Assembly (NCBI GenBank): GCA_964016885.1
Contig: OZ024751.1
Coordinates: 19,096,001 to 19,160,000, forward strand
Origin: Eledone cirrhosa
Lineage: Eukaryota
Direction: 5' to 3'
Length of the DNA: 64,000 nt
The notes under the pieces are model-generated. The model worked only from the letters and a program-made list of their open reading frames with translations. It was not told the DNA's origin and ran no database searches. Shown piece by piece: positions 5,780-61,512 of this stretch (position 1 is the first letter of the stretch; every line of letters starts with the position of its first letter). A program made the position numbers and the translations under genes.

Positions 5780-5952
5780 AATGTTTAACCCCGACGGCAG
5801 AGCTCAAATAGCCGTCCAGAAATAGCATTCGAAACGGCTTGAGCTCTGCCGTCGGGTTTAAACATTTTCCTATTACCCACTCTACTACCCTAAGTATTGA
5901 GTACTCTGGTGCGTTATGGTCCATCTGGTTCCTTACCACACCTCCTTCGTTA
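5780..5952 (+). mobile_element. Hairpin-plus-tail element, family H copy 1 (putative Penelope pLTR-derived)
   Basis: Inverted arms aatgtttaaccccgacggcagagctcaa / ttgagctctgccgtcgggtttaaacatt, then the tail tattacccactctactaccc...cttcgtta running into (TA)n. Homologous to 29143, 55931, 60681 and 61326. Confidence 0.7.
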
Positions 5953-6816
5953 TATATATATATATATATATATATATATATATATATATATATATATATA
6001 TATATATATATATATATATATATATATATATATATATATATATATATATATATGTGTGTGTGTGTGTGTGTATGTGTGTGTATTATCGATGGAATCCTCT
6101 ATACAATAGTCTGGTTATTGCTGTCGAATCGGCAAGAGCTCAGCCACTGGGCTCTAACATTCTACTATATACACTACATTGGCACTCCACCGGTTACGAT
6201 GGCGAGTGTTCCAGTTGATCCAATCTATTGAACAGCCTGCTCACGACACTTTTCAGGGATTGATAATATAAAGTACTTGTCGATATAATCAACTATACAA
6301 CTCTATCCAAATGTAAAGCTTTCTGCTTTCTGTCTCTGAGAGAAATCAATTTTCAATAATTATTCTGGAGCTTTCTGAAAACTGATTCCACTAAAATATT
6401 TCTGATTTTGCAGTTCGCTCTGATTTTCGGGCGGCATAGCGGCGGGTGGGGAGCTTCAGCTTAATAATGTTGTTTATTATTTAAAAAAAAAAAAAAGTAG
6501 TGTGGTTAGAGGCATTCGATCCATAACTAATCGTTTTTTTTAATGTTATTTTGGGGGTTGGGGGGGGGGTATAATTCCTCCTCTCATTTCGTTGGTTTCA
6601 ACAATGAGTGTTTCACTTGTACCATCAATTAAACAGCATGTTCATGAAATTACCACCAGTACTTAATGTAATACACATTGTGATTAAGGGTAATATAGTG
6701 TCTCACAGGTCTGTCCATTCAAATTACAGATACCGTCCATCTAATGGGCTTCCATGCAGTTTCTGTCTACCCAATTTCAATTTCAAAATGTTTTGGCTCG
6801 ATCCGGTGATATATTT

Positions 6817-7024
6817 TCCTGATTTTGCCACAAGGCCAACAATTTTGGGGAGAATAAAGCCGATTAAATTGACCCCAGTGCGTTTCAGGTACTTTATTTT
6901 ACCGACCCCGTGAGGATGAAAGGTAAAGTTAACCTCGGCAGGATTTAAATCAAAACGTAAAGAGACGTAACTCTATTCTGCAAAACATGTCCAATGCTCT
7001 ACCGATATTGATAATCCAGCACCC
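6817..7024 (-). mobile_element. tRNA-derived Nin/Deu-domain SINE
   Basis: Reverse complement of the core gcctttcatcc..ggggtcgataaaataaagtacc and the tail ggccttgtg. Confidence 0.75.
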
Positions 7025-7037
7025 TACCCGAGGATAT

Positions 7038-7207
7038 CAGGCTTATCAACTCTCCCCGTCGGACGGGGAGATCTCCGACCCACTTTGGGGTGTTTGAGAT
7101 GTCTTCTCATTAAGTCAAATCTCCACATTTTACCGCAATTCTCCCAGTTTGGGGGCACTTCTTTTTCATGGCACCCCCCGTTTGTGTTTTTAGAGGTTGG
7201 CAGATCT
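7038..7207. mobile_element. Possible hAT(Blackjack)-like MITE, decayed
   Basis: Imperfect TIRs caggcttatcaactct / agaggttggcagatctg; ggatat on both flanks (partial TSD). Confidence 0.35.
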
Positions 7208-7489
7208 GGGATATAAAATTCGATGCAATAAAATCGAACACGAGGCCTTTAAGATTACAAAGCGAAATCTTTAACCATACAGCAACATGGCGTTCTATTT
7301 TCTGACATAATATACATAGGACCACATTGCCCAAAGTGAGGCACCCATTTTTGTTTTCTTTAGATTTTTTTTTATAGAAAACATGATGTGATTTGATCGA
7401 GGAATAGACTGCTTCGTTTAACAACTAAAGCAAACATAGAAATCTCTTTTATTCGAGCGGATGAATGATGGTATTAAGTAGGCATGAGG

Positions 7490-7704
7490 GCAGTGGATTG
7501 GAAGTATCGGTAGAACGTCAGACGCCATGCCTCGCAGCATAGAGTTACGGCCCTTTAGTTCTGAGTTCAAATCTCGCCGATGTTAGCTTTGCCTTTCATC
7601 CTTATGGGGTCGATAAAATAAAGCACCAGTAATGCACTGGGTCGATTTAATCGACTTTTCCCTCCCTTTCAAATTGCGGGCCTTGTGCCTAAGATAGAAA
7701 CAAT
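7490..7704 (+). mobile_element. tRNA-derived Nin/Deu-domain SINE (long-tail form)
   Basis: A-box-like head, B-box gagttcaaatc, core gcctttcatccttatggggtcgataaaataaagcaccag, tail ccttgtgcctaagatagaaacaatt. Confidence 0.85.
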
Positions 7705-58108: not shown

Positions 58109-58491
58109 TTGCTGGAAGATGATGATGTGTGAATGAGAATGAATTTAGAAATGCGCTAAAAAATATTTGGTAAAACAAAAATGGGTTTGTGTCTATTGAA
58201 TGAATGTTGAGTGGCACCCCAATGACTTACTGCATCAATGGCACGCCAAGAGTAGTGGCACCTCAGCGACTTGCTGCACCTGGTCCAGGAAAATGATGAT
58301 GTTTGAATATGAATGAGATTAAAAATGAAATGAAAATATTTGGCGAAAAAAAAATAATAAATGATAGAACGTTTGTGACTGTGTTTACGTCATGTAACTT
58401 AGCAGTTCCACAAACAGCGATCGACGAAATATAAATGCCAGATTTCAGACTACAAAAAGATGAAACTACTGTCATTGTAGTGATAAATGAA

Positions 58492-58900
58492 GTAGTAGTA
58501 GTAGTAGTAGTAGTAGTAGTAGTAGTAGTGGTGGTGGTGGTGGTGGTGGTGGTGGTGGTGGTGGTGGTGGTGGTGGTGGCGGCGGCGGCGGCGGCGGTAG
58601 TAGTAGTAGTAGTAGTAGTAGTAGTGGTGGTGGTGGTGGTGGTGGTGGTGGTGGCGGTAGTAGAAGTAGTAGTAGTAGTAGTAGTAGTAGTAGTAGTAGT
58701 AGTAGTAGTAGTAGTGGTGGTGGTGGTGCTGGTGGTGGTGGCGGTAGTAGAAGTAGTAGTAGTAGTAGTAGTAGTAGTAGTAGTAGTAGTAGTAGTAGTA
58801 GTAGCAGCAGCAGTAATAGTAGCAGCAGCAGCAGCAGTAGTAGTAGTAGTAGTAGTAGCAGCAGCAGCAGCAGTAGTAGTAGTAGTAGTGGTGGTGGTGA
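58492..58900. repeat. Compound (GTA)n(GTG)n(GCG)n(GCA)n repeat
   Basis: Direct reading. Confidence 0.95.
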
Positions 58901-60680
58901 TAGTGGGGGGTCATGGTGGCGGTTGTGGTGGGGATAGCGGCAATGTTCTTCAACATAACGTAATGAATATCTAGCAGTCATGACAGGTCAAGAGTGGGAC
59001 CCCTTAAGTCTGCGCGCTTGACTGGTTTCGTACCAAAACACAGTACAACACTCAATACTCTTCAATGATGTCTGCGCATGCCTGAATATTATGTGTGCGT
59101 GTGCGCGGGGGTGAGTCCATGTGTGCTATGTATGTGTATGTGCCGCTGAATGCATTTACGCAAGTTTGCATGCGCGCTTTTATTTGTTTCGGTCATTAGA
59201 CTGCGGCCATGCTAGGGCAGAATCGCGATTTAGTTTATCCCTAAATAAGGCCTAGAAGTCATTATTTTTTCATGTCTGGTGCTTCACGCTTGTGCGTTCT
59301 TCAGACAAGGATTTCTTGTCTGAAGCTAGCAGTGAGTAAAGAAAATCTAGTTTATATATATATATATACACATACACACACACACACACACCCCACCACA
59401 CATACACACACACACACCCCACCATACACATACACACACACCCCACCACACACACACCACCACCACCACCACACATACACACACACATTTATGTATATAT
59501 ATATGTTCATATATTTCTAGGGCGGGTAAAATTCTCGAGATTATTCATATATATATATATACATATATATACATATATATATATATTCAAACACACATAT
59601 ATATATATACATATATATATACATATATATATACATATATATATATATATATATATATATATATATATATTCAAACACACATATATATACATACATATAT
59701 ATATATATATATATATAGAGAGAGAGAGAGAGAGAGAGAGATAAATATATATATATATATATATGTATATATACATACATATATATATATATATATATAT
59801 AAATATATATATATATATATATATACATATATATACATATATATATATATATATATATATATATATATATATATATATATATATATATATATTCAAACAC
59901 ACATATATATAGATATAATATATATATATTCAAACACACATATATATATATATATATATATATATATATATATATACACACACACACTGGATATATATAT
60001 GAGTGCGGTCATATAACATAGGCACACACAGGCGCTACAACGTATAAAGCATGACTATACTAATAAAAAAGAGTTTACCAGGTCGGATTTACGCTATAGG
60101 TATATATATACACTTATATAAATGTATATGTGTATATATATATATATATATATATATATATATATATATATATATGTATGTATATGTATATAGATAGATA
60201 TATACGTGTGTGTATGTATGTATGTATGTATGTTTGGATGTATGTATGAATGTGTATATATAAACGTGTATGAACTCAGACATCAAATTTGATTATCAGT
60301 TCTCATATAAATGCATATCGTATATACTAGCTGGTCCCTGGTTTCATTAGTGTTGGCTGGAGGTTCGAGTGTGAGAACATGCAATGATGCAGGGTAAATA
60401 GAAAAAAAAATCTGAAATAAAAAATATGGAAGATTTTTGTGACATGATGTGAAATGTCACCACGTGTCATCACGTGTTAATAGCATAACTGATGTAAATG
60501 GATGTGTAGGTAGGTCGTGTGTGTATATACAGATGTGTATGCATATATATATATATATATATATATATATATATATATATATATATATATATATATATAT
60601 ATATATATATGCATATATATATATGTATATATATATATACATATATATATATATATATATATATATATATATATATAATA

Positions 60681-60833
60681 GGAACCAGTAAGACCCCGAG
60701 AATTAGCCGTCGAATCGGCTTGAGCTCAGCCGTCGGGGTCTTACTGGTTCCTATTACCCACTCTACTACCCTAAGTATTGAGTACTTTGGTGCGTTATGG
60801 TCCACCTGGTTCCTTACCACATTTCCTTCGTTA
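60681..60833 (+). mobile_element. Hairpin-plus-tail family H copy 4 (short left arm)
   Basis: ggaaccagtaagaccccga / tcggggtcttactggttcc plus tail. Confidence 0.8.
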
Positions 60834-61325
60834 TATATATATATATATATATATATATATATATATATATATATATATATATAATAATATATATATATAT
60901 ATATATATATATATATATATATATATATATATATATATATATATATATATATATAGTAATAATAATAAATTTGAAGACTAAAATCCAAAGAGGGCTCGAT
61001 AAGAACCGTAGAGCAAATATTTATTAAAATAACAGACTAAAGTTTAAGCAAAGAATCGCTGCTTTCACCCTTAACGGGATCTTCTATATATATATATAAA
61101 TGAAAAGTATAGAAATTATTGTCAGCAAGAAGCCAACAGTATTTCATTATATATATAAAATAAAGTACCAGTAATACACTGGGTAATTGCTGGCCTTGTG
61201 CCAAAAGTAGAAACAATTATATATATATATATATATATATATATATATATATATATATATATATATATATATATATATATATATATATATGTATATGTGT
61301 ATGTTTATATACATATATATATATA

Positions 61326-61512
61326 TAACGAAGGAACTGTGGTAAGGAACCAGATGGACCATAACGCACCAAAGTACTCAATACTTAGGGTAGTAGAGTG
61401 GGTAATAGGAACAAGTATGACCCCGACGGTAGAGCTCAAGCCGTTTCGACGGCTATTTCATATACATGCGTCGAAACGGCTTGAGCTCTGCCGTCGGGGT
61501 CATACTTGTTCC
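61326..61512 (-). mobile_element. Hairpin-plus-tail family H copy 5
   Basis: Reverse orientation; ggaacaagtatgaccccgacgg / ccgtcggggtcatacttgttcc. Confidence 0.8.

What the first reader, a model, noticed from the sequence alone, without database searches (positions are those of the whole stretch)
5780..61512. Family H: five (TA)n-associated palindromic elements whose arm reads as the 3' half of a hammerhead, with copy-specific arm covariation
Seen: five 150-200 bp copies (5780, 29143, 55931, 60681, 61326), each a hairpin plus an ~85-nt conserved tail. The long arm reads ...AGCCGTC GAAAC GGCT-TGAGCTC-AGCC GTC GGGGTC, i.e. GAAA, a well-paired helix III and a GUC triplet. No copy has CUGANGA, and in copy 3 the hairpin centre falls where stem II would be. 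Copy-private substitutions appear in both arms (ggaaccagtaag/cttactggttcc; ggaacaagtatg/catacttgttcc; ggaacgagtagg/cctactcgttcc), and the hairpin centres differ between copies. Known: Penelope-like elements carry hammerheads in their pLTRs and often insert with an inverted partial pLTR. Inference: a non-autonomous ribozyme-associated retroelement whose inverted arm is made anew at each insertion, possibly by fold-back priming, and which targets (TA)n.
Basis: partly seen in the sequence, partly recalled or inferred. Interest (0 to 1): 0.75.

Follow-up and report, generated by a model that had tools for sequence, protein, structure and literature searches.

The report
Penelope stumps marking a capped start
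These five hairpin repeats are short stumps of a very abundant Penelope-type jumping gene, and their ends suggest that its enzyme likely copies just the front end of the element's own RNA, likely up to its cap, onto both sides of a cut in TA repeats.

Summary
The five copies are real and belong to a family with over 22,000 copies. It is not a non-autonomous element: longer copies lead into a 3.06-kb Hydra-type Penelope-like retrotransposon (RT plus GIY-YIG). Its type I hammerhead motif has a U3-A8 core (UUGANAA), so CUGANGA was the wrong motif to seek. The 'copy-private' covariations are subfamily markers in loop 1. Fold-back priming does not fit: the short arm often reaches further than the long arm. 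The arms have two fixed outer ends 79 nt apart, and 143 of 148 pairs share a subfamily, pointing to two cDNAs from one RNA joined head to head. New here: 81% of arms that reach helix II stop within one 10-nt zone; both arms of a copy pass or stop together; and arms ending at one A carry a non-templated G (about 5,800 genome-wide). This fits run-off at a capped transcription start inside the hammerhead, so the stumps would be 'strong-stop'-like dead ends. No RNA data tested this. The scan had already noted Hydra stumps, the U3-A8 core and two-armed insertions on other DNA of this genome; the notes shown did not mention the cap signature.

The parts
5780..5807 (-). Copy 1, inverted arm remnant (element positions +8 to +35; position 0 = G of GAAA). 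Degraded sequence at 5749-5779 resembles a tail end, so this may be a long+long pair
5814..5952 (+). Copy 1, long arm: -17 to tail end +121; older subfamily
29140..29204 (-). Copy 2, short arm: outer end at +42 (inner start site), inner end about -22
29203..29334 (+). Copy 2, long arm: -10 to +121; centre with a short microhomology seen in both orientations in other copies
55928..55990 (-). Copy 3, short arm: +42 to -20
55991..56132 (+). Copy 3, long arm: -20 to +121
55993..55993 (+). A at -18: inferred main transcription start of the parent, inside helix II of the hammerhead (shown here in copy 3)
   Evidence: inference
56011..56053 (+). 3' half of the parent's type I hammerhead motif in copy 3: GAAA, helix III with palindromic loop, GUC, 3' strand of helix I; ends at the inner start site (+42)
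56054..56132 (+). 79-nt PLE 'tail' between the two fixed outer ends (shown for copy 3)
   Evidence: 183 arms end at +42 and 225 at +121, of 514
60676..60699 (-). Copy 4, short arm: about +44 to +21
60699..60833 (+). Copy 4, long arm: -13 to +121
61326..61459 (-). Copy 5, long arm: -12 to +121 (element on the minus strand)
61469..61515 (+). Copy 5, short arm: +42 to -4; about 9 nt of filler at the centre

Best explanation
The five copies are short two-armed insertions of a 3.06-kb Hydra-type Penelope-like retrotransposon present in the same genome, likely made when its reverse transcriptase extends both ends of a cut (TA)n from two fixed points on one RNA and likely runs off that RNA's capped 5' end, which would lie inside helix II of the element's predicted hammerhead. 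Shown: parent anatomy (pLTR end, 79-nt tail, 91-nt leader, RT+GIY-YIG ORF, about 1.1 kb of 3' region, hammerhead motif with U3-A8 core); two fixed outer ends; head-to-head joining with variable centres; an inner wall at -16 to -25; an extra G before A(-18). Inferred: (1) the endonuclease cuts both strands in (TA)n; (2) both 3' ends prime on short UAU homologies at +42 and +121 of the same sense RNA; (3) on the main mRNA these sites lie only about 60 and 140 nt from the 5' end, so both cDNAs run off there and the cap is copied as an extra base; (4) host end-joining fuses the two cDNA ends with microhomology or filler; (5) the roughly one in ten copies that pass the wall come from read-through, tandem or circular RNA and give the long and full-length copies. 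The stumps would be dead-end, 'strong-stop'-like by-products with half a ribozyme.
For: Parent: shared upstream sequence in long copies; partial tandem with 3,057-bp spacing and ORF; protein motifs RWR, DKT, YRDD, CxCx5C, YIG, CxxC, CxH, matching the Hydra description in PMC8557442. Two outer ends: 183 and 225 of 514 arms; 157 of 185 pairs are one long plus one short. One template: subfamily agreement 143 of 148 against 38.7 permuted; rare alleles shared by both arms 6 against 0.25 permuted. Wall: 91 of 112 arms that reach -16 stop by -25. Passing is coupled within a copy: 6 both pass, 48 both stop, 2 mixed of 56, p=1.5e-6; all loci 29, 86, 3 of 118. Copies that include the ORF leader mostly pass the same sequence: 4 of 30 stop, p=8e-12 against ordinary arms. 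Extra G: of 29,695 arms reaching -18, 6,740 have a purine in front, 86 G to 14 A among the first 100 listed; one base further up 2,559, 27 G to 73 A; parents have no G there in 115 arms. A 257-bp tandem runs from -21 through tail and leader into the ORF start. Precedents: both strands extended from two internal start sites in vitro (PMC11167929); internal promoter in Penelope (PMC2377424); extra G from the cap at L1 5' junctions (PMC11702581).
Against: No RNA evidence was obtained for the start site or the cap. Where an arm is joined straight to (TA)n the preceding base is T in 87, C in 7, G in 5 and A in 1 of the first 100 of 585, so the G shows mainly at arm-to-arm joints. Many arms end at -19 to -24, often with extra T (16 of 16 at -21), so there is not one sharp end. 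None of the five window copies shows the G. Most rare differences are on one arm only (128 against 6 shared), and subfamily agreement can partly reflect subfamilies being active at different times. None of the few copies spanning a whole ORF stops at -16 to -25, which needs the added assumption that long copies use another RNA. Hydra membership rests on motifs; no tree was built and Pfam found nothing.
Confidence: 0.7

Rival explanations
1. The wall is a reverse-transcriptase stall at the helix II extension (or a protein bound there) on ordinary 3' pLTR templates, followed by non-templated C or A addition; no transcription start is involved.
For: The wall coincides with the 3' strand of a small hairpin in helix II. 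Ends are spread over -16 to -25, with T runs that look like slippage. The G is scarce where arms join (TA)n directly.
Against: A stall should hit the two arms independently, but passing is all-or-none. cDNAs that come through the ORF leader pass the same sequence in 26 of 30 cases. The hairpin is weak and AU-rich, and the stronger helices I, III and II are passed first. The G excess is specific to one position.
Confidence: 0.15
2. The template does end at the wall, but through an endonucleolytic cut in the helix II loop (host nuclease or small-RNA slicing), not through transcription initiation.
For: It explains the coupling of the arms and the read-through of other templates equally well; the loop is unpaired and AU-rich.
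Against: It does not explain the extra G or the initiator-like T[TC]AGT at exactly that A (initiator consensus recalled, not from a call). The hammerhead's own predicted cut is at +22/+23, where only 7 of 251 long arms end (+22 to +25).
Confidence: 0.07
3. Fold-back (self-priming) synthesis: one cDNA snaps back and copies itself to make the inverted arm; self-priming was also proposed for rotifer Penelope palindromes (PMC3846280).
For: Arms agree in subfamily; some centres could form a 4-bp snap-back; snap-back junctions occur with R2 proteins (PMC11371274).
Against: The short arm extends at least 15 nt beyond the long arm in 34 of 157 pairs (the reverse in 10). In L196, L077, L155 and L030 the long arm starts inside the tail. 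The same junction occurs in both orientations. I saw no centre that keeps the natural helix II loop among the short pairs printed. A short-arm-first fold-back could not make the tail.
Confidence: 0.05
4. H is a self-propagating non-autonomous family (MITE-like or retrozyme-like) copied from short master copies.
For: Short copies outnumber long ones about ten to one. One centre recurs in about eight copies.
Against: 124 of 130 centres are distinct and the recurring one occurs in both orientations. Seven of the eight commonest loop motifs also occur in long parent arms. Short copies lack the leader that follows the tail in the parent. No tandem arrays of whole ribozymes were seen.
Confidence: 0.03

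Closest known systems
Hydra clade of C-terminal EN+ Penelope-like elements (Craig et al. 2021, PMC8557442)
   Same: Single RT+GIY-YIG ORF of about 710-730 aa; RW[KR], DKT, CxCx5C, CxxC, CxH motifs; (TA)n targets; hammerhead motif in the pLTR; inverted 5'-truncated copy with a one-sided tail.
   Different: Unit 3.06 kb (paper: generally under 3 kb); tail 79 nt (paper: 30-40 bp for PLEs in general); U3-A8 core with long helix II, where the paper reports canonical HHRs. The published mollusc family Hydra-1_Obim has another hammerhead, and an 11-nt word of this family gave 0 hits in the supplement (line breaks could hide a hit).
Poseidon PLE of Anolis (PAc) in vitro (Frangieh et al. 2024, PMC11167929)
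   Same: Two internal RT start sites bounding the tail; both target strands cut and extended; AT-rich targets; hammerhead cleavage not needed for insertion.
   Different: Other clade. In the parts read, the paper does not explain the head-to-head joining or describe run-off at the transcript's 5' end; PAc's ORF starts inside its hammerhead, here 91 nt behind the tail.
U3-A8 hammerheads of Schistosoma Cercyon PLEs (Cervera and de la Pena 2014, PMC4209133)
   Same: U3-A8 in place of C3-G8; palindromic loop 3; pairs of motifs on opposite strands 100-700 bp apart, read there as truncated PLEs.
   Different: Those are minimal hammerheads; here helix III has 5-6 bp and helix II is long. About a third of the copies carry a C3-A8 mismatch (35 of the first 100, counted by eye).
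Animal non-LTR retrozymes (Li, Clavereau and Pollet 2026, 10.64898/2026.07.22.740005)
   Same: PLE-related, type I hammerhead, non-coding short units.
   Different: Retrozymes are tandem repeats of whole ribozymes and non-autonomous; these stumps carry half a ribozyme and are pieces of a coding element.
Full-length L1 insertions with a cap-derived G (PMC11702581); retroviral minus-strand strong-stop DNA (recalled)
   Same: Extra G at the 5' junction where RT runs off a capped RNA; a short cDNA made because priming lies close to the RNA's 5' end.
   Different: Strong-stop DNA is tRNA-primed and is transferred to the 3' end; here priming is target-primed, twice, and the short cDNAs are integrated as a palindrome.

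Membership tests
Hydra-clade PLE (parent) | Single ORF, RT followed by C-terminal GIY-YIG endonuclease | tested here: met
   710-aa open frame in L242 with DIESYY, YRDD and YIG motifs; 402 homologues at E<=1e-20, mostly about 700 aa and unnamed; Pfam scan of three ORFs gave 0 families
Hydra-clade PLE (parent) | RWK motif and DKT in place of DKG | tested here: met
   RWR at 27, DKT at 109 of P0001; definition
Hydra-clade PLE (parent) | CxCx5C linker; CxxC and CxH near the EN end; no CCHH in the EN | tested here: met
   CNCPDRSIC 564, CNLC 662, CKH 690; no cysteine pair inside the GIY-YIG core by reading
Hydra-clade PLE (parent) | Insertion into (TA)n | tested here: met
   (TA)n follows 170 of 183 inner-site ends and 199 of 225 tail ends; most others are TA variants
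Hydra-clade PLE (parent) | Short unit (under about 3 kb) | tested here: inconclusive
   Hammerhead-to-hammerhead spacing 3,057 bp in L241, slightly above the paper's 'generally <3 kb'
Hydra-clade PLE (parent) | Falls inside the Hydra clade in an RT phylogeny | not tested
   No reference Hydra proteins were held as tool sequences; no tree built
EN+ PLE insertion structure | Inverted 5'-truncated copy at the 5' end, tail at one end only | tested here: met
   157 of 185 head-to-head pairs are one tailed and one untailed arm; description
EN+ PLE insertion structure | Partial tandem forming pLTRs | tested here: met
   L241; L307 and L311
Type I hammerhead ribozyme (parent) | Canonical core CUGANGA | tested here: not met
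   7 CUGANGA among 32 G8 matches against 3,474 A8 matches; the core is the known U3-A8 variant, position 7 takes all four bases
Type I hammerhead ribozyme (parent) | Helices I-III around core, GAAA and NUH | tested here: met
   Constrained fold 0.8-1.5 kcal/mol above the minimum for four U3-A8 copies, 5.3 for one C3 copy; 90% of cells paired. The unconstrained fold of L158 was not better than shuffles (z -0.1)
Type I hammerhead ribozyme (parent) | Covariation in the helices | tested here: inconclusive
   1 pair with a two-sided change, no better than shuffles; the family is young
Type I hammerhead ribozyme (parent) | Self-cleavage after GUC | not testable with these tools
   Needs an assay; no clear pile-up of arm ends at +23
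Type I hammerhead ribozyme (the five window copies) | Complete core and helix I 5' strand | tested here: not met
   Arms end at -22 or nearer; the core lies at about -63 to -57. No hammerhead family among the 150 best of 391 Rfam matches listed
Non-LTR retrozyme | Tandem non-coding units each with a whole hammerhead, no coding parent sequence | tested here: not met
   definition
TIR MITE | Terminal inverted repeats at both ends around a fixed interior | tested here: not met
   One arm stops 79 nt short of the other end, interiors vary, and the parent encodes RT; a target-site duplication cannot be read inside (TA)n
Helitron end | 3' CTRR after a short hairpin, Rep-helicase parent (definition recalled) | tested here: not met
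   Ends are TTCC-TA and CGTTA; parent is RT+GIY-YIG

The most novel reading that the evidence does not exclude
In this PLE the promoter fires inside the hammerhead, so the capped mRNA carries only the ribozyme's 3' half plus both RT start sites next to its cap. The element's enzyme, working as a pair on one RNA, then writes mostly 60- and 140-nt run-off cDNAs into both ends of a (TA)n break, an integrated counterpart of retroviral strong-stop DNA, while only read-through or circular RNA gives coding copies. The tens of thousands of stumps would be a fossil map of the start site, and the split ribozyme could be completed by the 5' half in the downstream pLTR to control circle formation.
Probability: 0.55. 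Interest if true: 0.7.

Novelty: new member of a known kind. Interest (0 to 1): 0.52.

Why it matters
How Penelope-like elements make head-to-head inverted copies with a one-sided tail is open: self-priming on an antisense template was proposed (PMC3846280), and in vitro work found two internal start sites and extension of both strands without following the later steps (PMC11167929). This family gives thousands of natural products. They argue against fold-back, for two cDNAs from one sense RNA, and they predict an exact capped start site inside the hammerhead. That is directly testable by CAGE or 5' RACE and in the existing in vitro system. It would also explain why such genomes fill with short palindromes that annotation may take for MITEs or unknown repeats, and these hairpins could be a large source of double-stranded RNA against the element (not tested). 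The element class, the inverted structure and the U3-A8 core are themselves known.

Tried and rejected
The repeat finder was swamped by microsatellites. Rfam listed no hammerhead among the best 150 of 391 matches. Search for a CUGANGA parent: 35 matches; the 30 inspected were junction filler or pieces of other PLEs. Generic GIY-YIG search: the 30 best loci of 150 scored belong to other PLE families, none followed by this end. Pfam: 0 families for three ORFs. My first clade guess, Neptune, was dropped after reading the Hydra definition. Hammerhead cleavage as the source of the inner ends: no clear peak at +23. A pure poly(A)-addition reading of the T runs: in the subfamily with C at -19, two of six truncated arms extend with the templated C and four carry G, none T (small, partly preselected sample; the parent flag in that script failed, so only the printed rows were used). 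G before arms joined straight to (TA)n: not enriched over T. Covariation test of the hammerhead: not significant. The twin start-site hairpins of earlier scan notes: the leader hairpin folds weakly (z -1.5 and -1.7), the tail hairpin was not the minimum-energy fold. Sequencing runs: no RNA holder listed. tblastn of the parent protein against the window gave nothing; only the five copies match the parent. Literature searches showed no paper on run-off stumps or a start site inside a PLE hammerhead; the library lacks most subscription journals, and Repbase and Dfam were not available.
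Full report
OBSERVATION. Each is an inverted arm, a variable centre, a longer arm and a tail, flanked by (TA)n. Copy 2 folds into one hairpin at -123.1 kcal/mol, z -16.5. The window lies at G000:C11:19096001-19160000 of a 3.0-Gb assembly. 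One 35-nt tail word has 22,161 exact matches, control 0. Positions below are numbered from the G of GAAA (0).

THE PARENT. A search for CUGANGA upstream of the arm gave 35 matches; the 30 inspected were junction filler or pieces of other PLEs. Ninety loci chosen only for the tail word (30, 60 stretches of 10 kb) held longer copies with a shared upstream sequence that leads into a GIY-YIG C-terminus. L241 shows the whole unit: pLTR end, tail, 91-nt leader, ORF, about 1.1 kb of 3' region and a second pLTR end 3,057 bp after the first. A 710-aa open frame (P0001) has RT motifs, a CxCx5C linker, YIG, CxxC and CxH, plus RWR and DKT. These match the Hydra clade as described in PMC8557442 (passages). 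Pfam gave 0 families for three ORFs; 402 mostly unnamed homologues were found. No tree was built. The published Hydra-1_Obim has another hammerhead (supplement search).

THE HAMMERHEAD. The parent reads helix I, YUGANAA, a long helix II, GAAA, helix III with a palindromic loop, GUC, helix I. This pattern has 3,474 matches, with all four bases at position 7; the G8 version has 32, of which 7 are CUGANGA. U3-A8 replaces C3-G8, a variant reported for Schistosoma Cercyon PLEs (PMC4209133, parts 1-2 of 4 read). About a third of copies have C3 opposite A8 (35 of the first 100, by eye). The hammerhead fold lies 0.8-1.5 kcal/mol above the minimum for four U3-A8 copies and 5.3 for one C3 copy. The unconstrained fold is no better than shuffles and covariation is not significant. 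Cleavage is untested. The window copies keep only the 3' half.

ARMS. Among 514 arms from all loci held at that point, 183 end at +42, at the base of the extended helix I, and 225 at +121; 157 of 185 head-to-head pairs are one of each. This is the known PLE pattern of an inverted truncated copy with a one-sided tail (PMC8557442; PMC3846280 passages), and it fits two internal RT start sites with both strands extended (PMC11167929, parts 1-2 of 4 read). Both sites carry TAT, which can pair with a (TA)n primer. Arms agree in subfamily in 143 of 148 pairs (38.7 permuted; 9 of 157 pairs lacked the motif). Rare alleles are shared 6 times in 5 of 143 pairs (0.25 permuted), against 128 unshared. So the arms share a source, but most differences are later one-sided mutations. 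Fold-back does not fit: the short arm is at least 15 nt longer in 34 of 157 pairs, the long arm in 10, and in four copies the long arm starts inside the tail. Centres are distinct in 124 of 130 short pairs, with microhomology, blunt joints or small templated fillers, as expected of end-joining (signature recalled).

THE INNER WALL. In the tail-selected sample (222 arms), 91 of 112 arms that reach -16 stop by -25, and 17 pass -40. Three results say this is a property of the template. First, the two arms of a copy pass or stop together: 6 both pass, 48 both stop, 2 mixed among 56 pairs in which both arms reach -6; 29, 86 and 3 among 118 from all loci. Second, copies that include the ORF leader (64 matches; 62 distinct, 61 aligned) mostly pass: of 30 that reach -16, 4 stop, two of them in one tandem (p=8e-12); 27 ended at -5 or further 3' and do not bear on the test. 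Third, arms ending at A(-18) carry a foreign base: 6,740 of 29,695 arms have a purine there, 86 G and 14 A among the first 100 listed; one base further up the count is 2,559 with 27 G and 73 A (p=1e-17). Parents have T, C or A there, no G in 115 arms, and the bases before the G vary from copy to copy. An extra G marks run-off at a capped 5' end in L1 insertions (PMC11702581, passage). A(-18) sits in T[TC]AGT, like an initiator (consensus recalled). Penelope of Drosophila virilis has an internal promoter with an initiator (PMC2377424, passages). A 257-bp tandem in L176 runs from -21 through tail and leader into the first codons, so RNA beginning at the wall does continue into the ORF.

AGAINST. 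No RNA data: no RNA holder was listed. Where arms join (TA)n directly the G is rare: 87 T, 7 C, 5 G, 1 A in the first 100 of 585; joining through TA homology may remove it, but that is an added assumption. A second group of ends lies at -19 to -24, with an extra T in 16 of 16 arms ending at -21; this is unexplained and may be a second start or slippage. None of the five window copies shows the G. No copy spanning a whole ORF stopped at the wall among the few seen. The G:A ratios come from the first 100 listed matches, all on contig 1, counted by eye.

MECHANISM. Likely course: the endonuclease cuts (TA)n on both strands; both ends prime on one sense RNA at +42 and +121; on the capped mRNA the cDNAs run off after about 60 and 140 nt; end-joining fuses them head to head. 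Templates without that 5' end (read-through, tandem or circular) give the long copies. L241 supports a tandem template: a rare allele is shared by its upstream pLTR and the opposite arm but not by the downstream pLTR. Parent identity is near certain; the two-cDNA, one-RNA step I put at about 0.85; the capped start at about 0.7.

WHAT IS KNOWN. The class, the inverted structure, (TA)n targeting and the U3-A8 core are in print (PMC8557442, PMC4209133, PMC11167929). Retrozymes differ in being tandem whole ribozymes (10.64898/2026.07.22.740005, part 1 of 5 read). A recent octopus repeat annotation lists Penelope-like elements and MITEs but, in the passages seen, no such palindromes (PMC13282606). 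Snap-back junctions are described for R2 (PMC11371274, passages). PMC3088659 was seen only in a search listing. Seven searches showed nothing on run-off stumps or a start site inside a PLE hammerhead; the library is incomplete, and bioRxiv supplements were closed. Earlier notes of this scan already describe two-armed insertions, Hydra stumps, a U3-A8 hammerhead with long stem II and twin start-site hairpins on other DNA of this genome; look-ups by sequence and by words returned nothing. I had reached the PLE, two-arm and U3-A8 readings before and the Hydra call.

VERDICT. A new, very abundant Hydra-type PLE family seen through its stumps. The element is ordinary as a class. Its value is a testable mechanistic signature: a coupled inner wall with an extra G that points to a capped start inside the ribozyme.

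Noticed in passing
L028 (about 1000-1250), L014, L003, L024: A second short two-armed family in (TA)n with a complete CUGAUGA...GAAAC hammerhead core and the same GTATTGAGTAC tail motif at the same distance behind GAAA; probably another Hydra-type end.
   Followed up: partly
window 16389-16420 (+): Complete minimal hammerhead core (CUGAUGA, short helix II, GAAAC) of an unrelated family.
   Followed up: no
window about 49290-49342 (-): Another hammerhead-like core (CUGAAGA...GAAAC) followed by a TTGAGTAC motif and (TA)n.
   Followed up: no
window 6120-6145: Diverged fragment resembling the GAAA/helix III part of family H at the head of another repeat; similar pieces in L026 and L168.
   Followed up: no
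L044, L039, L033, L031, L045, L051, L032: H arms fused to pieces of other PLE families, some in the same orientation at or near the wall, as if RT jumped from the RNA's 5' end to another RNA (loci preselected by the CUGANGA pattern).
   Followed up: partly
L176:4448-5170; L283, L290, L300, L325: Short tandems that run from the wall region through tail and leader into the first codons and start again (257-bp unit in L176), suggesting small circles or template jumps.
   Followed up: partly
long arms: 26 of 251 long arms stop between +20 and +48, near the inner start site, against 10 between +49 and +110; could be collision with the second primer on the same RNA or a stall at helix I.
   Followed up: partly
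L036, L044, L095, L174, L279, L011: An older sister family (H2) with a different helix III, also truncated just upstream of GAAA; no long parent seen.
   Followed up: partly
L241:4800-4841 (-), L280:1506-1547: Small bulged hairpin 4 nt behind the tail end, in the leader, absent from the stumps; folds weakly (z -1.7, -1.5). Earlier scan notes propose it as a start signal.
   Followed up: partly
L167: A long arm in which the GIY-YIG C-terminus is joined directly to position -40, deleting the 1.1-kb 3' region.
   Followed up: no
window 39310-40800: 41-bp minisatellite, 36 copies, 97% identical.
   Followed up: no
window 42854-42969: (ATG)n followed directly by (ATC)n, a perfect microsatellite palindrome.
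   Followed up: no
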